Assembly (NCBI GenBank): GCA_038729485.1
Contig: JAVYRX010000002.1
Location: 124,739-188,738 of the forward strand
Source: Thermoplasmatales archaeon
Lineage (GTDB): Archaea; Thermoplasmatota; Thermoplasmata; Thermoplasmatales; GCA-001856825
DNA length: 64,000 nucleotides
Reading direction: 5' to 3'
Part shown: piece after piece, positions 14,379-57,930 of the stretch
Layout: every line of letters starts with the position of its first letter
How positions within the stretch are numbered: position 1 is the stretch's first letter
Notes under the pieces: generated by a model
Database searches by the model: none
What the model saw: the letters and a program-made list of their open reading frames with translations, nothing else
Told to the model about the DNA's origin: nothing
Translations under genes and position numbers: made by a program

Positions 14379-14615
14379 ATGGTCAAGAGAACTTACCTCT
14401 CTATAATCTTTAACACCGAAGGTGAGAGGCCATCTGAGATTATCGCAAGACTGCAGTCTCTTGGCTTCAGTCCAATAACCGGTACCAGGGATCTTGTGTA
14501 CGAGTGGGGAGATCATGCGACTGTAGCTGATGCGATATCTCTAATTGACAGGGTTCATGCTACCCTTGGCGGGTACAATGTCCTGTTTACGGCCGAGACC
14601 ATCGACGAGAGATAG
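14379..14615 (+). CDS. Small hypothetical protein (78 aa)
   Basis: ORF only, with no recognisable motif. Its 3' end is convergent with and overlaps rnp4. Confidence 0.35.
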   Translation: MVKRTYLSIIFNTEGERPSEIIARLQSLGFSPITGTRDLVYEWGDHATVADAISLIDRVHATLGGYNVLFTAETIDER

Positions 14616-14898
14616 GGAGGCGCCTTACATAACCGCAATGCTTGCAGCTAACAGTAAGATGGGATTTGTTTATTCGTATGTGTCCACCGTTCGCGTAAAT
14701 GCTTCTCTTGCATTTCCTGCAAATCCAGATCTTTGCCTCCGGGATCAGGGGCGCCTTGTACTTCAAAGAATATAGCGAAATCAATTGAAACTTTCTATTC
14801 GCGTAGTCATATTTCCCTGCTTTTTCGTCTTCTACAGCTAGTTCGAAGAGCTCTCTAATGCGCTCGCCTGCAATCCTTGTTTCATTTTGTCTTCCCAT
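14587..14898 (-). CDS. rnp4: Ribonuclease P protein component 4 (Rpp21/RNP4)
   Basis: 103 aa with a basic helical N-terminus and a zinc ribbon CRKC...CKHCGY. Confidence 0.7.
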   Translation of the reverse strand: MGRQNETRIAGERIRELFELAVEDEKAGKYDYANRKFQLISLYSLKYKAPLIPEAKIWICRKCKRSIYANGGHIRINKSHLTVSCKHCGYVRRLPISRRWSRP

Positions 14899-16102
14899 CT
14901 ATAAAGACACCCTTCCTTGAGCTGACGACGTCCCCCTCCTGTATAATAAGTTCTCCTCTCAGATAAACCTCATCTGGAAAAATTGCATCAAATCCATCAA
15001 AAGGGCTCCATCCGGCTTTAGAATGAAGCTCCTCTCCCTTCACTTTCTTCACGTTGTCGAAATTGACTGAAATAAAGTCTGCATCATATCCTGCCGCGAT
15101 GTAACCCTTGTTGACCCTGCATATACGCGAAGGAGCTTCCATCAATAAAGAAACCAAGAGTTTCAATGTGGGAATGACCCCCTTCCTGTAAAGACTCAAA
15201 ATCAGTGGGACTCTCGTTTCCACACCAGGAATTCCGGAAGGCGACGTGGAGAAATCGGATTTTTCCTCAGCCGTATGAGGTGCATGATCTGATGAAATCA
15301 CGTCCACATATCCAGAGCCAACATTTTCCATGAGCTCCTCCTGGACAGACCTTTTGCGAAGTGGAGGATTCACCTTGCCGAATGAACCTATGCTCATTTC
15401 GTTGTTAAGAAGCAGGTGATGGGGCGTAACCTCCGTAGTGAAACCCAGAGACTTTGAGAGATGAATAGCTCTGTTGGTGGTAATGTGAGCTATGTGAACG
15501 TTTTTTTCCAGGTATTCCGGAATTGACTCTATGGCTCTAATCTCGCATTCAATTGGTCTCGCTCTGTCGTGCTCGATCAGGTTTCTTGACTGGAGTTTGT
15601 TTTCATCAAGGCATTCCTGCAGCTCTGCATGAACGACTTTTACCTTTTCTGACCATACGCATCTATCCGGGTCGGTTATCAACCCGCCTGTTGATTTTCC
15701 AAGGAATATCTTTTCCCCGATTGCTGATTCAACTATGCAATCAGAAGCAAGCTGATAAAGGCCGAAATCGACGTAGCTTTTTCCTGATACAAGTCTTCTC
15801 TTGCTATCAAATGCCTCATCATTAGCTATTGGAATCTTATTATTGGGCATATCAAAAACTGTAGTGGTACCACCCATCGCAGCAGAGAGAGATCCCGTCG
15901 CAAAATCTTCTTTATACTCTTCCCCCGGGTCCCTGAAATGTACGTGCATATCCACCCCGCCTGGGAGAATGAAGCCAGGAATCGGTGTCACGTCATTTCC
16001 TTCTCTTTCCATTGAAACTTTCTTTATAACGCCGTTTTCGACGATAACGTATCGCTCCCTAAACTCGCCGTCAACGAAAAAATTACCGCGGAATGCTTCC
16101 AT
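14882..16102 (-). CDS. pyrC: Dihydroorotase
   Basis: 406 aa amidohydrolase with VDMHVHFRDPG and SDHAPH metal ligands. Confidence 0.8.
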   Translation of the reverse strand: MEAFRGNFFVDGEFRERYVIVENGVIKKVSMEREGNDVTPIPGFILPGGVDMHVHFRDPGEEYKEDFATGSLSAAMGGTTTVFDMPNNKIPIANDEAFDSKRRLVSGKSYVDFGLYQLASDCIVESAIGEKIFLGKSTGGLITDPDRCVWSEKVKVVHAELQECLDENKLQSRNLIEHDRARPIECEIRAIESIPEYLEKNVHIAHITTNRAIHLSKSLGFTTEVTPHHLLLNNEMSIGSFGKVNPPLRKRSVQEELMENVGSGYVDVISSDHAPHTAEEKSDFSTSPSGIPGVETRVPLILSLYRKGVIPTLKLLVSLLMEAPSRICRVNKGYIAAGYDADFISVNFDNVKKVKGEELHSKAGWSPFDGFDAIFPDEVYLRGELIIQEGDVVSSRKGVFIDGKTK

Positions 16103-16720
16103 TCATTTCTCCCGATTGAGAATCTTTCTGAAGACGGGTCCTCGCGGTTCCGCCTCGTAGAATATTTCAGCTCCGAAGGTGTATATTGACGTATCTGGAT
16201 CCTTCCAGCATTCAGGTTCCATCCCCGCTTTCCAGCAAACGGAGTTCAGAAAATCCGTTCCGTTCATTTTTTCCTCTACCGCAACCTGCGGAAGTAGAAG
16301 GCCCGAATATCCGTCTCTTTCAGCTATCAGCCCGTCCCTTCCTACTACTATTGCGCTTGGGGCCTCGCTCCTCTTGTTGACTTTCAAAGTGACGGGCTTC
16401 GTTAGCAGGGAGACTTCCACTATTATATTATCCATTTCCTCCTTTGTCACGGGTGGAAATCTCGGATCATTTACTGCCGCTGATATGGCACTCCTTATTA
16501 TGGCCTCTCCTAGCGGATATACTGGTTCAGGGAAGCCTATGCATCCCCTGAGTTCACCAGAAACAGTATTTAGAGTCGTGAAAACTCCTCTCTTTTCAAC
16601 GAACTTCCCTCCGTAGCTGTTCTTTATCACTAATTTGATATCGATGTATTCCTCGATTGCTCTCCTTGCCATTTTAGTTGCAATTTCTCCATCTTCATCA
16701 GTATACTCTTGTGAGATCAT
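16103..16720 (-). CDS. AMMECR1-domain protein
   Basis: 205 aa with the hallmark LRGCIG motif and PRFPPV. Confidence 0.85.
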   Translation of the reverse strand: MISQEYTDEDGEIATKMARRAIEEYIDIKLVIKNSYGGKFVEKRGVFTTLNTVSGELRGCIGFPEPVYPLGEAIIRSAISAAVNDPRFPPVTKEEMDNIIVEVSLLTKPVTLKVNKRSEAPSAIVVGRDGLIAERDGYSGLLLPQVAVEEKMNGTDFLNSVCWKAGMEPECWKDPDTSIYTFGAEIFYEAEPRGPVFRKILNREK

Positions 16721-17763
16721 ACTCCTCGCTTATCCCCCCAAATAAATTTGTGAAGCTGGGGCAATACTCTGATATTTAATCTTTCCTTTAATACTTTTTC
16801 TGCCAGTTCCTTGAGATTCTTACCCCCCTCCGGCTGGAAAATTATTTCACCGTCGAATGGATATTTTTCAATTATTGATTTTGAAAATTGGAAATCGTTA
16901 TCATCCTCTATCACGAACTTTAGATAATCCTTCTTACCCAATAATTCAATGTTCTCGTAAAGATTATGTTCGACCATGTTGGACGAAGGCGTCTTAATGT
17001 CCATAGAAATAATCATGTTATCTTCAGTTGGAACGTTTTCTATAGAAATAGAGCCGCTCGTCTCCAGTATGATTGTAAACTCATTGTCTAGTAGCCTATG
17101 CATTAGGGGGTAAACGTCCGGCTGGAGAAGCGGTTCCCCGCCAGTTATTGAAACTAGCTTAGTTCCGTATTGCTGAGCCTCTTGTATCAGATCGTCAACG
17201 CTTCTCTTATAACCGCCAGAGTATGAATACTTGGTATCGCAGTTGTGCGATGCAAACGGACCGGAAATGTAATTATGAGTTTCAGTCTCAAAATGATTTA
17301 TTGTCCTGACACCTGAGTATTCGATTTTAACAACGAGATCCTTTTCAACCTTGATCTTTTCCCCTATGGCCACATCTCCCTCGTTTATCACTCTAATCTC
17401 TTTCCCTATCGATCTATCAGCTCTAACTGTCTGGGTCCCAGATACGTAAAAGGGATGTTCAGGCGTCACCACTATGCTTTTTCCCGATTCGGTGGTTATC
17501 TTGACCGTTTCTGATCTGGTCTTGATTGTGTTAAGTACCTTGGCTCTTTTAAACGTGCCGTTTGAGAAGCCGATTAGACGATCCCCCTTTTTAACATTGC
17601 GAGCCTTCTTCCATTTCATTTCATCGGTAAGTATTGGCTCTTCTCCGGCAGGGGTCCAAGTACACCTGAGGTTGCATCCTGACAGCCGAATGAAGAAGGT
17701 GGGTTTACCTATATGAGGACCTTCGCCTTCCAATGAATAGAACGTCTCGATAATAGTGAGCAC
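16717..17763 (-). CDS. queE: 7-carboxy-7-deazaguanine synthase (radical SAM QueE), interrupted in frame by a mini-intein
   Basis: N-terminal SLEGEGPHIGKPTFFIRLSGCNLRCTW and, 138 aa later, CDTKYSY...SITGGEPLL. The exteins join to give the QueE CX3CX2C motif. Confidence 0.85.
   Translation of the reverse strand: MLTIIETFYSLEGEGPHIGKPTFFIRLSGCNLRCTWTPAGEEPILTDEMKWKKARNVKKGDRLIGFSNGTFKRAKVLNTIKTRSETVKITTESGKSIVVTPEHPFYVSGTQTVRADRSIGKEIRVINEGDVAIGEKIKVEKDLVVKIEYSGVRTINHFETETHNYISGPFASHNCDTKYSYSGGYKRSVDDLIQEAQQYGTKLVSITGGEPLLQPDVYPLMHRLLDNEFTIILETSGSISIENVPTEDNMIISMDIKTPSSNMVEHNLYENIELLGKKDYLKFVIEDDNDFQFSKSIIEKYPFDGEIIFQPEGGKNLKELAEKVLKERLNIRVLPQLHKFIWGDKRGV
17242..17655 (-). mobile_element. Mini-intein (138 aa, no endonuclease domain) within queE
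   Basis: Block A-like TPAGEEPILTDE...GDRLIG, block B IVVTPEHPF (TxxH), and block F/G VRTINHFETETHNYISGPFASHN followed by a +1 Cys. The boundaries were checked on the DNA: the acc Thr codon is at 17653-17655 and the aac Asn codon at 17242-17244. Confidence 0.8.
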
Positions 17764-17793
17764 TTTAACTATATTACGGATCGGAATAAATCT

Positions 17794-18414
17794 TTACTGT
17801 GACTTCGAAAGAACCATTTCGCAATCAAACTTCTCAGAGGAAACGGTGTCCTTCTTTATGAGTTTATACGATGGAAGCATAGATCTTATGAGAGCGTCTT
17901 CGAAAGAACTGCAGAGAAGCTTTTCCTTATCAAGTGCGAGAGAGTAATAAATGCAATTATTCCTTTTAATTACGAGAGCACCGTCTTTCTCGAACGCAGT
18001 TGCCATACAGCCCAAACTGTTGTAAAAATTTATGAGCGCGGAGACGCCGTCAGCACTTCCTGGATTTTGGCTTGCTATTCTTTGCCCCGCTCTCTTGAGG
18101 AACTCCCTGACCCACTCGATACCGTTCTCCCTCGAAAGTTCGTCAAGGACAATCTTCAGAAGGAAATCATACCTTTTTGGAAAGAGATTCATTCCGTCGG
18201 CTGAGATATAGTACGTCTTCTTCGGTCTCCCGACTCCCGTTCTTATGAAACGAGATTCAACATATCCCCTTCCTTCAAGAACGCTAAGATGTTCCCTTAC
18301 CGCATTATTTCTGATGTTAAGCTTTCTAGCCAATTCGTAAATGCCTTTTGGACTTTCCAATAATTCTTCCAAGATTCTTTGCTTGCTGTATCCAAGGGAG
18401 CTTATCTCTTCCAT
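17794..18414 (-). CDS. ArsR-type winged-helix regulator with a Cys-containing C-terminal domain (SufR-like, COG2345-like)
   Basis: N-terminal wHTH (RILEELL...IYELARKLNIRNNAVREHLSVLEGRGYV...GRPKKTYYISADG). The C-terminal domain has four Cys. The gene is divergent from the suf operon. Confidence 0.6.
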   Translation of the reverse strand: MEEISSLGYSKQRILEELLESPKGIYELARKLNIRNNAVREHLSVLEGRGYVESRFIRTGVGRPKKTYYISADGMNLFPKRYDFLLKIVLDELSRENGIEWVREFLKRAGQRIASQNPGSADGVSALINFYNSLGCMATAFEKDGALVIKRNNCIYYSLALDKEKLLCSSFEDALIRSMLPSYKLIKKDTVSSEKFDCEMVLSKSQ

Positions 18415-18473
18415 TTCATTAATAAGATTGATTGGTCATATATAATTTTTATCAATTTAGACAGTAAAAAATG

Positions 18474-18481
18474 TTTAAATA
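18474..18481 (+). promoter_or_regulatory. Putative TATA box for the suf operon (leaderless sufC transcript)
   Basis: TTTAAATA is centred about 26 nt upstream of the ATG at 18504. A second AT box (18437-18450) faces the divergent regulator. Confidence 0.4.
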
Positions 18482-18503
18482 TGATGGCATGATTAGTAAA
18501 ATA

Positions 18504-19271
18504 ATGCCGACAGATATCCTCGAAATAAAGAATCTCAACGTTTCAATAGGACAAAAGGAAATATTAAAGGACGTCAGTATTATCGTGAAGTCTGGCGAAA
18601 TACACGCTCTCATGGGTCCGAACGGAACTGGTAAGAGCACCCTCGCACAGACAGTCATTGGTAACCCAAAATATAAGGTGAACGGCGGCTCGATCCTCCT
18701 GAATGGGAAAAATCTAACAACACTTCAAATATATGAAAGAGCAAGGGAGGGCCTCTTCGTGGCCTTTCAGGAGCCGGTATCCGTACAGGGACTAAGGTTC
18801 ATAAATTATCTGAGGACCGCATATACGTCCCTTCATCCGAATGAGAAGCTTGAATACAAGAAATTTGTGGATGAGGTAAAGGAGCTTTTGGGTTATTTTG
18901 GGCTTGACAATAGTTTCATAGATAGGGGATTGAATGATGGCCTTTCCGGCGGGGAGAAGAAGAGGATGGAAGCATTGCAGATGCTCATGCTAAAACCAAA
19001 ATTCATAATTCTGGACGAAATAGACTCTGGTCTTGACGTTGATGCTTTGCGTGTTGTCTCCAAGGCAATAGGCAGGGCTAGAGACAGTGGTGCGGGCGTA
19101 ATAATCATAACTCATTACCAAAGAATTTTGGAGCATATCAAGCCAGATTTCGTCCATGTGCTGATAAATGGGAAGATCGCCGAGAGCGGTAAAGGTGAGC
19201 TTGCAAAGTTGATAGAAGAAAGGGGATATGACTACTATAGAGGTGGTGAAGTAGATGCAAAAATTGAATGA
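18504..19271 (+). CDS. sufC: Fe-S cluster assembly ATPase SufC
   Basis: Walker A GPNGTGKST, LSGGEKKR and Walker B ILDEIDSGLD. The start was chosen at the internal ATG (MPTDILEIKNL) because the TATA box falls inside the longer ORF (18471). Confidence 0.9.
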   Translation: MPTDILEIKNLNVSIGQKEILKDVSIIVKSGEIHALMGPNGTGKSTLAQTVIGNPKYKVNGGSILLNGKNLTTLQIYERAREGLFVAFQEPVSVQGLRFINYLRTAYTSLHPNEKLEYKKFVDEVKELLGYFGLDNSFIDRGLNDGLSGGEKKRMEALQMLMLKPKFIILDEIDSGLDVDALRVVSKAIGRARDSGAGVIIITHYQRILEHIKPDFVHVLINGKIAESGKGELAKLIEERGYDYYRGGEVDAKIE

Positions 19272-20679
19272 GAATAGTGTTGAGGAAGTAAAGAAAGTGA
19301 ACGAAATCAAGTATGATTTCGTAACGAATGTTAAGCCTGCTTTCCAGACGGATAGAGGTCTGAGTAGGAAGATCGTAGAGGATATATCGAAGGAAAAGAA
19401 GGAGCCAGAATGGATGCGGAATATCCGTTTGAGAGCTCTTGATATCTTCCTGTCAAAGCCTGTTCCTACCTGGGGACCAGATCTATCGGAACTTAATTTC
19501 GACGAGATCACTTACTACATTAAACCCGAAGACAGGAAAGCGAACAACTGGGATGAAGTGCCTGAGGAGATTAAAAACACGTTTGAAAAACTTGGTGTCC
19601 CGGAGATGGAGAGGAAATACCTCTCAGGAAGCGTTGCACAGCTTCAGTCACAGGGGGTGTACTCCAGACTAAAGAAACAGTGGGAAGAGAAGGGAGTTAT
19701 ATTCATGGATATGGACAGCGCCCTTCAAATGTATCCTGACATCGTTAAGGAACACTTCGGGAGGATTGTACCTCCTTCGGATAACAAATTTGCTGCCCTT
19801 AACACGGCTGTTTGGTCCGGAGGGTCTTTCTTGTACGTGCCTAGGGGAGTGCAACTTGACCTGCCCGTTCAGGCATACTTCAGGATGAATGGTGCGCTTG
19901 AAGGCCAATTTGAGAGGACTTTAATAATCGCAGAACCAGGTGCATCTGTTCATTATATAGAGGGATGCACGGCACCTACGTACAGTCAGTATTCCCTGCA
20001 CGCTGCCATCGTTGAGGTATACGTTAAGGCGAATTCAAAAGTTAGATATACGTCAGTGCAGAACTGGTCTGACAATATAATAAATGGCCCAACTAAGAGG
20101 GCGTGGGTAGAAGAAAATGCCAGGATGGAGTGGGTTCAGGGCTCCCTTGGATCAAAGATTACCATGACTTATCCTTCATCAATACTCAGAGGAGAATATG
20201 CAAGCACATCCAACCTGAATGTTGCCCTAGCAATTGGACCCGTATGGAAAGACAATGGAGCAAAGGTCATCCATGCGGCTCCAAATACGAGCTCGAAGGT
20301 CGTAGCAAAGAGCATCTCGGGCAAGGGTGGAATGGCTGTATACAGGGGACAACTGAGAATTAACAATGGAGCCTACAATTCAAAAGCGTCTGTGCAGTGC
20401 GATGCTCTTATACTTGATGATGTGTCGAAGAGCAATACCTATCCACACAATGAGGTTCTTGAACAAGGCGCGGCCTTCTCCCATGAAGCTTCGGTCGGAA
20501 AGATATCAGAGGAGCAGGTAGATTACCTGATGAGCAGGGGCATAAGGGAAGAGGACGCAAGATCTCTTATAGTTCTTGGTTTCCTCGACGACGTGCTCAA
20601 GGAAATACCGCTGGAATATTCTATAGAATTTAACAAGCTAGTAAAACTGGAAATGGGAAAGTACGGTGCTGTGGGTTGA
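19255..20679 (+). CDS. sufB: Fe-S cluster assembly protein SufB
   Basis: 474 aa. It lies between sufC and sufD with overlapping stops and starts, and has a SufB/D beta-helix region (IEGCTAP...). Confidence 0.9.
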   Translation: MQKLNENSVEEVKKVNEIKYDFVTNVKPAFQTDRGLSRKIVEDISKEKKEPEWMRNIRLRALDIFLSKPVPTWGPDLSELNFDEITYYIKPEDRKANNWDEVPEEIKNTFEKLGVPEMERKYLSGSVAQLQSQGVYSRLKKQWEEKGVIFMDMDSALQMYPDIVKEHFGRIVPPSDNKFAALNTAVWSGGSFLYVPRGVQLDLPVQAYFRMNGALEGQFERTLIIAEPGASVHYIEGCTAPTYSQYSLHAAIVEVYVKANSKVRYTSVQNWSDNIINGPTKRAWVEENARMEWVQGSLGSKITMTYPSSILRGEYASTSNLNVALAIGPVWKDNGAKVIHAAPNTSSKVVAKSISGKGGMAVYRGQLRINNGAYNSKASVQCDALILDDVSKSNTYPHNEVLEQGAAFSHEASVGKISEEQVDYLMSRGIREEDARSLIVLGFLDDVLKEIPLEYSIEFNKLVKLEMGKYGAVG

Positions 20680-21851
20680 GCTTCGAAGAGATTGTTCTGG
20701 AAAAGAAGAAAAAAGCTGAACAAATTCCGCTGCTAGCACAACACGACTCTCCGTCTGTCAAGAGCTACACCCCTATAAGAGACGAAGAAGTCGCGCCGCT
20801 CCTCAATACGAAGAAACTTGGGTGTGCAGGAATGCAAAGAAACGTGACAACGCATAACGGATCTCCTTGCAGGTTATTTGCCAGGGGATCTTTTACATTC
20901 CTTCCCATTGATGAGGCAATAAAGGGCAATCTAGTAAAGGGGGAGGAGCTTTTCAATGAAGAATACGATAAACTAAGCGCGATAAATCAAGGGTATTTTA
21001 ACGACGGGTTCTATATAGGTATCCCTGAAAAATTCAACGATGAAAAGATGATGAGCATTCTTCATACCGGCGATACTGATTTCAATGCACGGAATTTAAT
21101 AAAGATCGGAAAGAATTCATCCGTTAAAATCCTCGAAAATTTTGTAATGACTGGAAATGCAAGAGTATCGCACGGCACTGTGATAAGACTTGGGGAAAAT
21201 TCTACTCTTGACTTATATCTCCTTGAGGATAGTGCCAGTACTGATCTCAGCTACATTGAAAGAACCATTATAATGCAAAGGTATTCTACTGTTAAGATAC
21301 ATCACTTGGCCCTTCCGGGAAGGAGGAGCATAAGCAGAATCCGTGTTATCCAGGAAGGGGAGCATGCGGAATCCAGATATTACGGGGCCGCAATCGGCAA
21401 AGGGAGCGAACATCTTGATTTGGAGGTCTATTCTGACCACAAGATTCCTCATGGAAGGAACGACACTGTATTCAAGGCCATTCTTGGCGGTAAATCGTCA
21501 CTCATATTCCGAGGGTTTATCAAGATAGAAGAAAAAGCCGAAGACGTGGAATCGTTCCTATTAGCCAACTTGCTCATCCTATCTGAGGAAGCGGTTGGAA
21601 ATGCACTGCCGGTTCTAGAAATCTACAACGGGCAGGTAAAAGCGAAACATGGGGAGACTGTTTCCAACATTTCCGAAGACGAGATGTTTTATTTGATGAG
21701 CAGAGGGCTCGATACTATACAGGCGAAGAAGGCCATAATAGAAGGATTTATTAGTCCTGTGATCTATCCTCTTCCAGAAGACATTTCAAGGAAATACCTT
21801 GAAATTGTTGAAGAAGTGGTTAGTAGTGATCAGCGTAAGCAAAATACGTGA
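20676..21851 (+). CDS. sufD: Fe-S cluster assembly protein SufD
   Basis: 391 aa paralogue-like protein downstream of sufB, with a TTG start and a 4-nt overlap. Confidence 0.8.
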   Translation: MSFEEIVLEKKKKAEQIPLLAQHDSPSVKSYTPIRDEEVAPLLNTKKLGCAGMQRNVTTHNGSPCRLFARGSFTFLPIDEAIKGNLVKGEELFNEEYDKLSAINQGYFNDGFYIGIPEKFNDEKMMSILHTGDTDFNARNLIKIGKNSSVKILENFVMTGNARVSHGTVIRLGENSTLDLYLLEDSASTDLSYIERTIIMQRYSTVKIHHLALPGRRSISRIRVIQEGEHAESRYYGAAIGKGSEHLDLEVYSDHKIPHGRNDTVFKAILGGKSSLIFRGFIKIEEKAEDVESFLLANLLILSEEAVGNALPVLEIYNGQVKAKHGETVSNISEDEMFYLMSRGLDTIQAKKAIIEGFISPVIYPLPEDISRKYLEIVEEVVSSDQRKQNT

Positions 21852-56722: not shown

Positions 56723-56826
56723 TAGGAAGGTATATTAATCATTATTATAAATAATTCTGTTAAAATTATATCCTGTTTTCCTTTTCTAAAAACAAAGCTA
56801 AGAAAAGTAGATAAAAGAGATCAAGC

Positions 56827-57930
56827 TTGAGCAATGTGTTTACGCTGGTTAGATACTCGGAAATAGGTACTAAGGGCGACAATAGAGGATATTTTGAGGA
56901 ATTACTGAGAAGAAACATAATGGCCAAATTAAATGAAAATTCCATCTGGGGCGAAGTCGGCATCGAAGAATCAAGGCTTGTGATCGAATCTCATGAGCCT
57001 CTTGAAGGCATCCTTTCCAAGATTTTCGGCATCTCTTCATTTTCTGTGGCAACTAGGGTGAATTCCACTCCTGACGAAATTGAAGACGCTCTTTCCGGGA
57101 TTTCTGTAAAGGGCAGTTTCAGGGTTACAGTGAATAGGAGAGACAAAAGCTTTCCCTTTACCTCGCAGGAGTATTCAGCTCGTCTAGGAGAGTTGATCCT
57201 GAGCAGGAATCCGGGGGCCAAGGTTAGCCTTAGGGATTACGATGTAAACGTTGGGGTGGACATAGGATCCAGGTTCACATACATATATGACAATTCCCTC
57301 AGCGGGCCAGGGGGTATGCCTGTTAGATCTCAGGGGAAAGGTGTTGCGTTGATTTCAGGAGGAATAGATTCCCCGGTGGCAGCGTACATGATGATGAAGA
57401 GGGGAATGGAGCTGAGCTTGATTCACTACTTTCAAAGCTCTCGTCTTCTTGAAAAGGTTATTAGGAACAAAGAATTCCTCGAACAGTTCTCGCCTTACCC
57501 CATTGAGATCAAAATCGTTGATCACAGAAAGATGATAGGAAAGACCGTCATGGAGCTAAGAAAGAGGGGCGAGGAGCGGTGGACGTGCATATTCTGCAAG
57601 AGAGAGATGTACCGCGAGGGGGAAAAGTATGCCGTGGAAATTGGAGCAAAGGGCATAATAACAGGGGAAGACCTGGGACAGGTCGCAAGCCAGACGCTGG
57701 AAAATCTAAATACGATAGAAGAGAAAACGACTATCCCAGTTTTCAGACCCCTGATAGGGTTTGACAAGCTGGAGATAGAACAACTATCAGAGAAGATAGG
57801 ACTTTTCGATATATTCCTCTCGGACACGACATCGTGCGACTGCTACTTCCTCCCACCTAGACCAAGGACGAGGAGTTCCATAGAGGAATTCAAATTGATC
57901 GAAGAAAAGATTTCAGAAAGATCCTCATGA
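56827..57930 (+). CDS. thiI: tRNA 4-thiouridine synthase ThiI (THUMP + PP-loop, no rhodanese domain)
   Basis: N-terminal RYSEIGTKGDNR and PP-loop LISGGIDSPVA. It has a TTG start. Confidence 0.85.
   Translation: MSNVFTLVRYSEIGTKGDNRGYFEELLRRNIMAKLNENSIWGEVGIEESRLVIESHEPLEGILSKIFGISSFSVATRVNSTPDEIEDALSGISVKGSFRVTVNRRDKSFPFTSQEYSARLGELILSRNPGAKVSLRDYDVNVGVDIGSRFTYIYDNSLSGPGGMPVRSQGKGVALISGGIDSPVAAYMMMKRGMELSLIHYFQSSRLLEKVIRNKEFLEQFSPYPIEIKIVDHRKMIGKTVMELRKRGEERWTCIFCKREMYREGEKYAVEIGAKGIITGEDLGQVASQTLENLNTIEEKTTIPVFRPLIGFDKLEIEQLSEKIGLFDIFLSDTTSCDCYFLPPRPRTRSSIEEFKLIEEKISERSS

What the first reader, a model, noticed from the sequence alone, without database searches (positions are those of the whole stretch)
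17242..17655. Cysteine-free mini-intein beginning with Thr splits the CX3CX2C radical-SAM motif of QueE
The queE ORF is 348 aa, about 140 aa longer than the QueE core.

The N-extein ends ...FIRLSGCNLRCTW and the C-extein starts CDTKYSYSGG. Joining them restores GCNLRCTWCDTKY, the uninterrupted 4Fe-4S/SAM motif.

The 138 aa in between carry three intein signatures:
- block A: TPAGEEPILTDEMKWKKARNVKKGDRLIGF
- block B: IVVTPEHPFYV (TxxH)
- blocks F/G: VRTINHFETETHNYISGPFASHN followed by a +1 Cys

There is no room for a homing endonuclease.

Several details are unusual:
- Residue 1 is Thr (codon acc, verified on the DNA), not the usual Cys/Ser/Ala.
- The intein has no Cys at all.
- It sits between the 2nd and 3rd cluster-ligating cysteines, so the precursor cannot assemble its cluster.
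- The Cys(-3)/Cys(+1) arrangement is the kind that gives redox-gated splicing. From memory, the Pyrococcus abyssi MoaA radical-SAM intein behaves this way.

QueE is not among the classical intein hosts that I know of.
Basis: partly seen in the sequence, partly recalled or inferred. Interest (0 to 1): 0.8.

Follow-up and report, generated by a model that had tools for sequence, protein, structure and literature searches.

The report
Thr-initiated mini-intein inside QueE
A 138-residue self-splicing protein element (intein) interrupts the iron-sulfur-binding motif of the tRNA-modification enzyme QueE in a group of Thermoplasmatales archaea, and it starts with a conserved threonine, which reviews of natural inteins do not list at that position.

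Summary
ORF 16717-17763 (-) is QueE carrying an in-frame 138-aa insert (17242-17655) between Trp36 and the third cluster cysteine. Intein-less orthologues (about 80% extein identity) at the same syntenic locus read RCTW|CDTKY without interruption.

The insert is a HINT/intein domain. It matches intein profiles, and its AF2 model (pLDDT 94) matches mini-intein structures at TM 0.83. It keeps block B TxxH, the terminal His-Asn and Cys+1.

Residue 1 is Thr in all 10 protein clusters and 9 independent contigs, encoded by ACC, ACT or ACA. Among about 320 related intein N-termini only this clade has Thr; nearly all the rest have Cys.

Synonymous sites are saturated while extein dN is 0.03-0.13. QueE therefore remains under selection, so the element must splice (inference).

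Thr1 co-occurs with invariant, clade-specific Pro2, Asn120-His121 (His at block F:4, normally Asp/Asn) and Ser136.

Best reading: a functional class-1-type intein using a Thr1 oxyester, with a remodelled active site. A KlbA-like direct attack by Cys+1 cannot be excluded.

Verdict: new variant of a known kind; interest about 0.6.

The parts
16717..17763 (-). queE precursor ORF (348 aa, GTG start): 7-carboxy-7-deazaguanine synthase interrupted by an intein
   Evidence: ORF list. TIGR04349 rSAM_QueE_gams scores 2.8e-59 in two stretches. The protein is 100% identical to P0001, named 'radical SAM protein [Thermoplasmatales archaeon]'.
17656..17763 (-). N-extein, aa 1-36, ending GCNLRCTW. It carries cluster Cys30 (17674-17676, position -7) and Cys34 (17662-17664, position -3); Trp36 is residue -1
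   Evidence: Alignment with intein-less orthologues; junction codons.
17242..17655 (-). 138-aa mini-intein (HINT splicing domain) with no Cys and no endonuclease domain
   Evidence: TIGR01445 scores 27.4 bits, above its 24.5 cutoff; PF14890, PF07591 and PF01079 also hit. AF2 model pLDDT 94.2. Foldseek TM 0.83 to the NpuDnaB and SspDnaB mini-inteins.
17650..17655 (-). Block A start: Thr1 (ACC, 17653-17655) and Pro2 (CCT). Both are invariant in the clade and absent at these positions in relatives
   Evidence: Thr codons ACC/ACT/ACA and Pro codons CCG/CCA/CCT in 6 genomes. Residue-1 tallies are C217/S1/T10 and C85/S2/T8. Column comparison.
17455..17466 (-). Block B T64-P-E-H67 (TxxH)
   Evidence: Invariant in the clade; T is 94% and H 98% in relatives.
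17293..17298 (-). Block F Asn120-His121. His121 aligns with position F:4 (usually Asp or Asn) of the nearest relatives
   Evidence: H121 is invariant in 10/10 clade members and occurs in 0.4% of relatives. HMMER alignments to P0243, P0141, P0237, P0244 and P0144 put H121 opposite N or D of the VYN/VFD motif. The alternative register, with N120 at F:4, comes from MAFFT and the mixed profile.
17242..17250 (-). Block G end: Ser136-His137-Asn138 (penultimate His and terminal Asn)
   Evidence: H137 and N138 are invariant and shared with relatives. S136 is clade-specific; relatives have V 71%.
16717..17241 (-). C-extein, aa 175-348 plus stop. It begins with Cys175 (17239-17241), which is both the +1 nucleophile and the third [4Fe-4S] ligand
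   Evidence: Alignment A1 shows CDTKY invariant. PF04055 Radical_SAM covers aa 175-240.

Best explanation
This is a genuine, still-functional mini-intein sitting between the aromatic residue and the third cysteine of the CX3CX2C radical-SAM motif of QueE.

After translation the 348-aa precursor cannot ligate its [4Fe-4S] cluster. The HINT domain excises itself and joins ...RCTW to CDTKY..., giving the 210-aa enzyme. That enzyme makes 7-carboxy-7-deazaguanine for archaeosine.

The most likely chemistry is the class 1 pathway, in four steps:
1. The Thr1 side-chain hydroxyl performs the N-to-O acyl shift, giving a linear oxyester.
2. Cys+1 takes over the N-extein, forming a branched thioester.
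3. Asn138 cyclises.
4. An S-to-N shift closes the peptide bond.

The poorer Thr nucleophile is proposed to be supported by a remodelled pocket. Its elements are Pro2, His121 at block F:4 in place of the usual Asp/Asn (a possible general base), Asn120 and Ser136.

Shown here:
- domain identity, boundaries and fold;
- conservation of Thr1 and of the catalytic residues;
- purifying selection;
- presence/absence polymorphism of the intein.

Inferred, not shown:
- that splicing occurs;
- that Thr1 is the nucleophile;
- that His121 assists it.
For: Boundaries: intein-less orthologues at an identical syntenic locus (sufDBC | HTH-queE-AMMECR1-amidohydrolase-Rpr2) read RCTWCDTKY.

HINT identity: profile hits; PDB sequence hits to a BIL domain, the KlbA intein and the gp41-1 intein; AF2 pLDDT 94.2; Foldseek TM 0.81-0.83 to DnaB mini-inteins.

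Catalytic set: T64, H67, H137, N138 and C+1 are invariant.

Thr1: present in 10 clusters and 9 contigs, with the synonymous codons ACC, ACT and ACA.

Selection: dS is saturated for most pairs. Extein dN is 0.03-0.13 and intein dN 0.05-0.49. For the closest pair omega is 0.06 (extein) and 0.11 (intein). Both parts are therefore maintained.

Mobility: intein-less alleles interleave with intein-containing ones in the extein tree.

Active-site changes: a constellation of clade-specific invariant residues lies at otherwise conserved active-site-proximal positions (T1, P2, N120/H121, S136).

Chemistry precedent: Thr can replace Ser1, since the S1T mutant of the Tli pol-2 intein splices (cited in PMC2807308). 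Class 1 is defined there and in PMC5222942 as Ser1, Thr1 or Cys1.

Role of F:4: the block F Asp normally stabilises the deprotonated residue-1 side chain and helps the +1 attack (PMC10663303). A His at that position is therefore mechanistically meaningful.
Against: No biochemical evidence exists; splicing is inferred only from selection on the exteins.

Conservation of Thr1 could reflect a structural role rather than a nucleophilic one.

The step from oxyester to thioester (Thr1 ester to Cys+1 thioester) is energetically uphill (own knowledge). That fits a direct Cys+1 attack at least as well.

The register placing His121 at F:4 depends on the alignment. MAFFT and the mixed profile put Asn120 there and His121 at F:5. 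I could not read coordinates of the model to measure distances.

The clade is small (about 10 clusters at 90% identity, one host lineage), so covariation is confounded with common descent.
Confidence: 0.6

Rival explanations
1. Class-2-like (KlbA-type) splicing. Thr1 is not the nucleophile. Cys+1 attacks the Trp(-1)-Thr1 peptide bond directly to form the branched thioester. Asn138 cyclisation and an S-to-N shift follow.
For: Cys+1 is invariant and is the only thiol near the active site. The KlbA intein (2jmz) is the second-best PDB sequence hit, at E 0.004. This route avoids an uphill ester-to-thioester exchange (own knowledge). The usual F:4 Asp that stabilises the residue-1 nucleophile is missing (PMC10663303).
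Against: Known class 2 inteins have Ala1, and only KlbA orthologues are described (PMC2807308). Here a hydroxyl residue is strictly kept through three synonymous codons. Foldseek ranks KlbA only 50th, at TMq 0.76. The nearest relatives are all Cys1 class 1-type inteins.
Confidence: 0.22
2. Conditional splicing. The element is a functional intein whose excision is gated. The gate could be redox state (a Cys-3/Cys+1 or Cys-7/Cys+1 disulfide), Fe-S or metal binding by the three extein cysteines, or temperature, so that QueE maturation is regulated. This is compatible with either chemistry above.
For: Cys-7, Cys-3 and Cys+1 surround both splice junctions. Disulfide control is documented for the Pab MoaA intein (Cys-3/Cys1) and the Pab PolII intein (Cys1/Cys+1) (PMC3922620). 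The gene lies next to the suf Fe-S assembly operon. The hosts are MAGs labelled Thermoplasmatales or Thermoplasmata.
Against: Nothing in the sequence tests this. The documented MoaA trap needs Cys1, which is absent here. The suf synteny is the same for the intein-less allele, so it says nothing about the intein.
Confidence: 0.15
3. A non-splicing, domesticated or decaying HINT insert. Either QueE is inactive in these genomes, or it works with the domain left in place because the HINT termini lie close together.
For: The canonical residue 1 (Cys/Ser) and the F:4 Asp are both replaced. There is no endonuclease. The Pfam Intein_splicing score (24.9) is below its gathering cutoff (35.8).
Against: T64, H67, H137, N138 and C+1 are all invariant although dS is saturated, and intein omega is about 0.06-0.19. 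The exteins are under strong purifying selection. An insertion between the Phi residue and the third Cys of CX3CxPhiC would split the cluster/SAM-binding loop (established radical-SAM knowledge). A decaying element would not keep exactly 138 aa in 9 of 10 clusters.
Confidence: 0.06
4. Artefact: a sequencing or assembly error or mis-called boundary, with the true intein starting with Cys/Ser.
For: None found.
Against: The same junction W|TP...SHN|C occurs in 9 independent contigs from different assemblies, with differing codons. Shifting the boundary is impossible because W differs from N and T differs from C at the two ends, and orthologues fix the ligated sequence.
Confidence: 0.01

Closest known systems
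Class 1 mini-inteins (e.g. Ssp/Npu DnaB mini-inteins, PDB 1mi8 and 4o1r)
   Same: HINT fold with TM 0.81-0.83. Block B TxxH, terminal His-Asn and a Cys at +1. About 140 aa with no endonuclease. In-frame insertion at a catalytic site of a conserved protein.
   Different: Residue 1 is Thr rather than Cys or Ser. Pro is at position 2. Block F:4 is His (or Asn) rather than Asp. There are no cysteines in the intein.
Pyrococcus abyssi MoaA intein and other Cys1 inteins in radical-SAM CX3CX2C motifs (here P0211, P0237 and P0262; NCBIfam NF038136 and NF045703 model intein-containing rSAM families)
   Same: The host superfamily is the same. For P0211, P0237 and P0262 the insertion point is also the same, immediately before the third cluster Cys, with Cys at -3. 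These are among the nearest sequence relatives of the Thr1 clade.
   Different: All of them begin with Cys1. That allows the Cys-3/Cys1 disulfide trap described for MoaA and recreates a CX3CX2C in the precursor. The QueE clade has Thr1, so neither is possible.
Cys1 mini-intein in QueE of a distant lineage (P0025, P0026, P0038)
   Same: Same host enzyme, identical insertion site and similar size (136 aa). That gene lies next to queC.
   Different: Only 19-24% identical to the Thr1 intein. It starts CLPGD and ends THN. It is not the nearest relative under a Thr1-only profile, so it is probably an independent invasion or a very old split.
Ser1 'oxyester' inteins with the NX-motif histidine (PolB16 OarG, Psp Pol-1; Pasch et al. 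2023, PMC10189870)
   Same: A hydroxyl nucleophile at position 1. An extra, subgroup-specific histidine is proposed to help it.
   Different: The Thr1 clade has no conserved His N-terminal of block B, so the NX motif is absent. Its extra His is in block F. Its +1 residue is Cys, not Ser or Thr.
Class 2 KlbA inteins (M. jannaschii KlbA, PDB 2jmz)
   Same: Archaeal mini-intein with Cys+1 and a non-Cys/Ser residue 1. PDB sequence hit at E 0.004.
   Different: KlbA has Ala1 (no side-chain nucleophile) and a block F Asp (IYDLTV). Here residue 1 carries a hydroxyl.
[quoted passage not shown]
   Same: It shows that Thr at position 1 can support splicing in a thermophile intein (cited in PMC2807308).
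   Different: It is an engineered substitution. The present case is a natural lineage in which Thr1 is fixed.

Membership tests
Intein (HINT protein-splicing domain) | In-frame insertion in a conserved host protein, absent from orthologues, with exact boundaries that restore the host sequence | tested here: met
   The 210-aa orthologues read RCTW|CDTKY. They lie at the same syntenic locus.
Intein (HINT protein-splicing domain) | HINT fold | tested here: met
   AF2 pLDDT 94.2. 67 PDB matches at E<=1e-3; the listed matches are inteins, bacterial intein-like (BIL) domains and Hedgehog autoprocessing domains; top TM 0.83.
Intein (HINT protein-splicing domain) | Block B Thr-x-x-His | tested here: met
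   T64-P-E-H67 is invariant.
Intein (HINT protein-splicing domain) | Block G penultimate His, terminal Asn, and Cys/Ser/Thr at +1 | tested here: met
   S-H137-N138|C175 is invariant in all members.
Intein (HINT protein-splicing domain) | Curated profile scores | tested here: inconclusive
   TIGR01445 scores 27.4, above its 24.5 cutoff. Pfam PF14890, PF07591 and PF01079 are significant but below their gathering scores.
Intein (HINT protein-splicing domain) | Autocatalytic excision and extein ligation | not testable with these tools
   Inferred only from purifying selection on the exteins and on the catalytic residues.
Class 1 inteins | [quoted passage not shown] | tested here: met
   Thr1 is present and conserved. 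Natural examples described so far are Cys or Ser only (PMC2807308; PMC10663303; PMC11842431). Ester formation itself is not testable here.
Class 1 inteins | Block F position 4 Asp | tested here: not met
   F:4 is His121 in the register of the nearest relatives, or Asn120 in the alternative register. Asn is common at this position in this sub-family (72%).
Class 2 (KlbA) inteins | No side-chain nucleophile at position 1 (Ala1), with direct attack by the +1 residue | tested here: not met
   Residue 1 is Thr. Whether direct attack occurs is not testable.
Class 3 inteins | WCT triplet (block B Trp, block F:4 Cys, block G:5 Thr) | tested here: not met
   The intein has no Cys. G:5 is Ser136. The residues after block B His are P-F-Y.
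Bacterial intein-like (BIL) / non-splicing HINT domains | Located in variable, non-conserved proteins, often without a +1 nucleophile | tested here: not met
   It is inserted in the catalytic motif of a conserved enzyme, with Cys+1. 2lwy (a BIL domain) is the best PDB sequence hit, but only at E 6.7e-5.
Redox-trap inteins of the Pab MoaA type | Cys at -3 and Cys1 able to form a CxxC disulfide | tested here: not met
   Cys-3 is present (C34) but residue 1 is Thr.
Ser1 oxyester inteins with the NX motif | Conserved [KR]-His about 38 residues before the block B Thr | tested here: not met
   The clade has no conserved His before H67.
Homing (mobile) intein | Nested homing endonuclease, or presence/absence polymorphism among close alleles | tested here: inconclusive
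   Polymorphism is met: intein-less alleles interleave in the extein tree. The window intein has no endonuclease. Relative P0009 has a 178-aa insert with two LAGLIDADG-like motifs, but support is weak: I-MsoI E 0.025, no Pfam hit, AF2 pLDDT 41.
QueE (7-carboxy-7-deazaguanine synthase, radical SAM) | QueE family profile and a CX3CX2C cluster motif | tested here: met
   TIGR04349 scores 2.8e-59 in two stretches. Its 200 bits fall below the 300-bit cutoff because the hit is split. The motif is restored only after excision. The Cys1-intein homologue lies beside queC.

The most novel reading that the evidence does not exclude
This would be the first natural lineage of inteins that uses threonine as the N-terminal nucleophile.

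It would do so with a distinct active-site solution: Thr1-Pro2, plus His at block F:4 acting as general base in place of Asp.

The change would have been selected because a Cys1 placed after Cys-x-x in the radical-SAM motif recreates CX3CX2C in the precursor. Such a Cys1 is prone to capture by Fe-S or metal binding, or by a Cys-3/Cys1 disulfide. Replacing it by Thr would make QueE maturation independent of redox state and iron.

It would also provide a compact, thermostable intein scaffold with no internal cysteine.
Probability: 0.3. Interest if true: 0.75.

Novelty: new variant of a known kind. Interest (0 to 1): 0.62.

Why it matters
Intein literature has noted since at least 2010 that Thr is used at +1 but 'has not been observed' at position 1. 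This is despite Thr being chemically competent there (PMC2807308). Reviews from 2023 and 2025 still list only Cys or Ser at position 1.

A natural clade that keeps Thr1 under selection, together with a co-varying His at the block F catalytic position, gives two things:
- a direct experimental handle on why Thr1 is so rare;
- a view of what an active site needs in order to use a secondary alcohol.

There is also practical interest. Cysteine-less inteins are sought for protein ligation under oxidising conditions (PMC10189870). This one is 138 aa, has no internal Cys and comes from Thermoplasmatales hosts.

Biologically, it adds QueE and the archaeosine pathway to the list of intein hosts. It also shows that the radical-SAM cluster motif is a recurrent intein target.

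Tried and rejected
(1) The search for homologous proteins with the intein alone returned only a fragment. With the P0009 insert it returned nothing. The word index seems not to retrieve sub-sequences. The profile search of representatives replaced it.

(2) Single-sequence AF2 of the P0009 insert gave pLDDT 41, so no fold search was attempted. Pfam found no LAGLIDADG family. The endonuclease assignment therefore stays weak.

(3) I could not obtain model coordinates. The Thr1-His121 and Thr1-His67 distances could not be measured. An attempt to deduce side-chain facing from the DSSP string was abandoned as unreliable.

(4) I first assumed the Cys1 QueE inteins were the direct ancestors of the Thr1 clade. 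A Thr1-only profile does not rank them among the nearest 40 domains, so that claim was dropped.

(5) Literature searches for QueE inteins found nothing relevant; 'QueE' mostly matched 'Queensland'. Searches for natural Thr1 inteins also found no report. The Novikova 2016 survey text does not mention radical SAM or MoaA, and its supplements are not held. Callahan 2011 is not held.

(6) A regex scan of the window found no second intein, no queC or queD, and no uninterrupted CX3CX2C motif.

(7) dN/dS could be computed properly only for the closest pairs, because dS is saturated for the others.
Full report
OBSERVATION

The - strand ORF 16717..17763 encodes 348 aa from a GTG start; homologues begin MLT(V/I)(I/N)ETF. 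It reads ...FIRLSGCNLRCTW | TPAGEEPIL...GPFASHN | CDTKYSYSGG.... Residues 37-174 correspond exactly to 17655..17242. The Thr1 codon is ACC (ggt on the + strand at 17653-17655), preceded by TGG for Trp. The coordinates, the quoted motifs and the absence of cysteine in the 138 residues are all correct.

WHAT THE HOST IS

NCBIfam's QueE models hit the protein in two stretches. TIGR04349 gives 2.8e-59, with the best stretch at aa 169-347. Pfam Radical_SAM starts at residue 175.

A search of 5.8 billion proteins found an identical entry, named only 'radical SAM protein [Thermoplasmatales archaeon]', with no intein annotation. It also found many 209-210-aa QueE proteins. The closest of these have 77-80% extein identity and read GCNLRC(T/E)WCD(T/S)KY without interruption.

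One intein-less allele (P0013) lies in exactly the same gene order as the window. That order is sufD-sufB-sufC, divergent from ArsR-type HTH, queE, AMMECR1, amidohydrolase and Rpr2. The insert is therefore a presence/absence polymorphism at an orthologous locus. The two ends differ (W versus N, T versus C), which leaves only one possible pair of boundaries.

WHAT THE INSERT IS

- Profiles. On its own the insert passes the curated cutoff of TIGR01445 'intein N-terminal splicing region' (27.4 against 24.5 bits). It also hits Pfam Intein_splicing, PT-HINT, Hint and Vint at E 2e-5 to 9e-3.
- PDB sequences. The best matches are a bacterial intein-like domain (2lwy, 6.7e-5), the KlbA intein (2jmz, 0.004) and the gp41-1 intein.
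- Wider family. A profile of the insert with 11 relatives finds 15,224 proteins at E<=1e-3 among 1.84 billion representatives.
- Fold. An AF2 model from only 12 sequences has mean pLDDT 94.2. Its best Foldseek PDB matches are the NpuDnaB and SspDnaB mini-inteins (TM 0.81-0.83), followed by other inteins, BIL and Hedgehog HINT domains.
- Catalytic residues. Block B T64-x-x-H67, the penultimate His137, the terminal Asn138 and Cys+1 are invariant.
- Other classes. There is no WCT triplet, so it is not class 3. It is not in a variable protein and has a +1 nucleophile, so it is not a BIL domain.

THE THR1 CLADE

Ten protein clusters at 90% identity (64-100% identical overall) carry the same element, always W|TP...SHN|CDT. 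Nine independent contigs carry it too. Five are GTDB species representatives labelled Thermoplasmatales, Thermoplasmata or Thermoplasmatota. Four are JGI metagenome contigs.

Thr1 is encoded by ACC in the window, L001 and L002, by ACT in L003, and by ACA in L004 and L005. Pro2 is encoded by CCT, CCG or CCA. This excludes a sequencing artefact and shows selection at the amino-acid level.

Synonymous sites are saturated between most pairs, whereas extein dN is 0.03-0.13 and intein dN 0.05-0.49. For the closest pair, omega is 0.06 for the exteins and 0.11 for the intein.

The insert separates the aromatic residue and the third Cys of the cluster motif. Continued strong selection on QueE therefore implies that the element is removed. 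This is the main inference of the report; no tool here can show splicing.

In an extein-only NJ tree, intein-less alleles (P0013, P0015, P0019, P0020) interleave with intein-containing ones. This is expected for a mobile element that is gained by homing or lost precisely.

One cluster (P0009, 526 aa, six members) has the same Thr1 intein plus a 178-aa insert at the canonical endonuclease position. The insert has two LAGLIDADG-like motifs (LAGVIDGTMD and VAGMIDSSGS) 93 residues apart, in which the usual acidic residues are replaced. Support is weak: I-MsoI at E 0.025, no Pfam hit, AF2 pLDDT 41 and no homologues retrieved. I treat it as a probable degenerate homing endonuclease.

HOW UNUSUAL IS THR1?

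- Among 228 intein N-termini in the 107 nearest representative proteins plus the QueE set, residue 1 is Cys 217, Ser 1 and Thr 10. All ten Thr belong to this clade.
- Among 95 distinct N-termini in 129 fetched loci, it is Cys 85, Ser 2 and Thr 8. Again all Thr are QueE.
- Tori et al. [quoted passage not shown] They add that Thr can perform the same rearrangement and that the S1T mutant of the Tli pol-2 intein splices.
- Reviews from 2023 and 2025 still describe residue 1 of class 1 inteins as cysteine or serine.
- I found no report of a natural Thr1 intein or of a QueE intein in the held library. That library does not cover subscription journals.

ACTIVE-SITE REMODELLING

Comparing each profile column between the clade and 292 related HINT domains gives two sets.

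Shared, conserved positions: G24, D25, V40, G58, T64, H67, P68, G84, H137 and N138.

Invariant residues that are nearly absent in relatives:

| Clade residue | In relatives |
|---|---|
| T1 | C 100% |
| P2 | F/L/V/I |
| A18 | I 90% |
| R78, R81 | mostly A and L |
| I119, H121, F122 | block F; Y 80% at 119, L 69% at 121, mixed at 122 |
| S136 | V 71% |

A Thr1-only profile ranks P0243, P0144, P0141, P0176, P0237 and P0244 as the nearest domains. Their block F reads VYN(L/F/I)(E/S)T..HT(Y/F) or VVDLQT.... HMMER aligns the clade's I-N-H-F-E-T-E-T-H-N-Y to it so that His121 lies opposite the F:4 Asn/Asp and Asn120 opposite the F:3 Tyr. MAFFT and the mixed profile give the other register, with Asn120 at F:4 and His121 at F:5. 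I favour the first register, because it comes from the nearest relatives and preserves the hydrophobic alternation.

The block F Asp normally stabilises the deprotonated residue-1 side chain and assists the +1 attack (PMC10663303). A histidine there could serve as general base for a secondary alcohol.

The clade lacks the NX-motif His that Pasch et al. found specific to Ser1/Ser(Thr)+1 inteins (PMC10189870). It has no conserved His before H67. This would therefore be a different solution for oxyester chemistry.

THE INSERTION SITE

Other radical-SAM proteins among the nearest relatives carry Cys1 inteins at the same place. P0211 reads CSLRCSY|C...HN|CYQ, and P0237 and P0262 are similar. P0141 has one a step earlier, at CNLA|C...HN|CTYC. 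A distant QueE lineage (P0025, P0026, P0038; 50-52% extein identity; next to queC) also has a Cys1 mini-intein at the identical site. That intein is only 19-24% identical and is not the closest relative of the Thr1 clade. NCBIfam already models intein-containing rSAM families. The host site is thus a recurrent target; Thr1 is the novelty.

In Cys1 versions the precursor reads C-x3-C-x2-C(intein). That is a false complete motif and the CxxC arrangement which forms the Cys-3/Cys1 disulfide trap in the P. abyssi MoaA intein (PMC3922620). Thr1 removes both possibilities. This suggests, but does not show, why Thr might have been selected here.

MECHANISM AND RIVALS

I commit to a functional intein (about 0.9 overall).

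- Class 1 chemistry through a Thr1 oxyester, assisted by His121, is the most likely route (about 0.6).
- The main rival is a KlbA-like direct attack of Cys+1 on the Trp-Thr peptide bond (about 0.2). It avoids an uphill ester-to-thioester exchange and fits the loss of the F:4 Asp. However, all known class 2 inteins have Ala1, and here a hydroxyl residue is strictly kept.
- A non-splicing domesticated HINT domain is unlikely (about 0.06), given the invariant catalytic residues and the selection on the exteins.
- Redox-, iron- or temperature-gated splicing is possible but untested.

VERDICT

This is a real feature, correctly read by the first stage. It is a new variant of a known kind: a naturally Thr1, cysteine-free mini-intein with a remodelled block F, in a new host enzyme. 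It is of clear interest to intein mechanism and engineering. It is directly testable with a simple expression and mutagenesis series.

Noticed in passing
window 14587-21851: Gene order is Rpr2 / amidohydrolase / AMMECR1 / queE / ArsR-type HTH on the - strand, divergent from sufC-sufB-sufD on the + strand. The same order surrounds the intein-less queE allele in L130 and L131. A radical-SAM gene thus sits next to the Fe-S assembly operon irrespective of the intein.
   Followed up: partly
window 16717-16720: The queE stop codon overlaps the ATG of the downstream AMMECR1 gene by 4 nt (ATGA). This suggests translational coupling or an operon.
   Followed up: no
P0009 (also L053, contig Ga0078972_1000743): A 526-aa QueE carries the same Thr1 intein plus a 178-aa insert between blocks B and F. 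The insert has two LAGLIDADG-like motifs whose acidic residues are replaced (IDGTMD, IDSSGS). It is probably a degenerate homing endonuclease. P0010 keeps a 6-aa remnant at the same point.
   Followed up: partly
P0025, P0026, P0038; L132 3001-4041: A distant QueE lineage has a Cys1 mini-intein at the identical site. Its precursor reads CNLRCSW|C, so the intein's Cys1 recreates a complete CX3CX2C motif before splicing. The gene lies beside queC.
   Followed up: partly
P0211, P0237, P0262, P0141 (representative proteins): Other radical-SAM/SPASM-type proteins carry Cys1 inteins inside the CX3CX2C motif: before the third Cys in three cases, before the second Cys in P0141. The cluster motif is a recurrent intein insertion hot spot.
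   Followed up: partly
P0121 (1285 aa) and other top hits: Many best-scoring proteins contain 3-10 tandem HINT domains. 129 of 238 aligned C-termini are HN|K, that is, without a +1 nucleophile. These look like BIL-type or tandem HINT arrays rather than true inteins.
   Followed up: no
window 17242-17655 versus the rest of queE: The intein is slightly more G+C-rich than the exteins in all six genomes (for example 0.437 against 0.411 in the window, and 0.517 against 0.450 in L003).
   Followed up: no
window 56815-57927: An ORF has an SGGIDS PP-loop motif (ThiI/QueC-like ATP pyrophosphatase signature). It was not identified further. No queC or queD was recognised in the window by motif scan.
   Followed up: no
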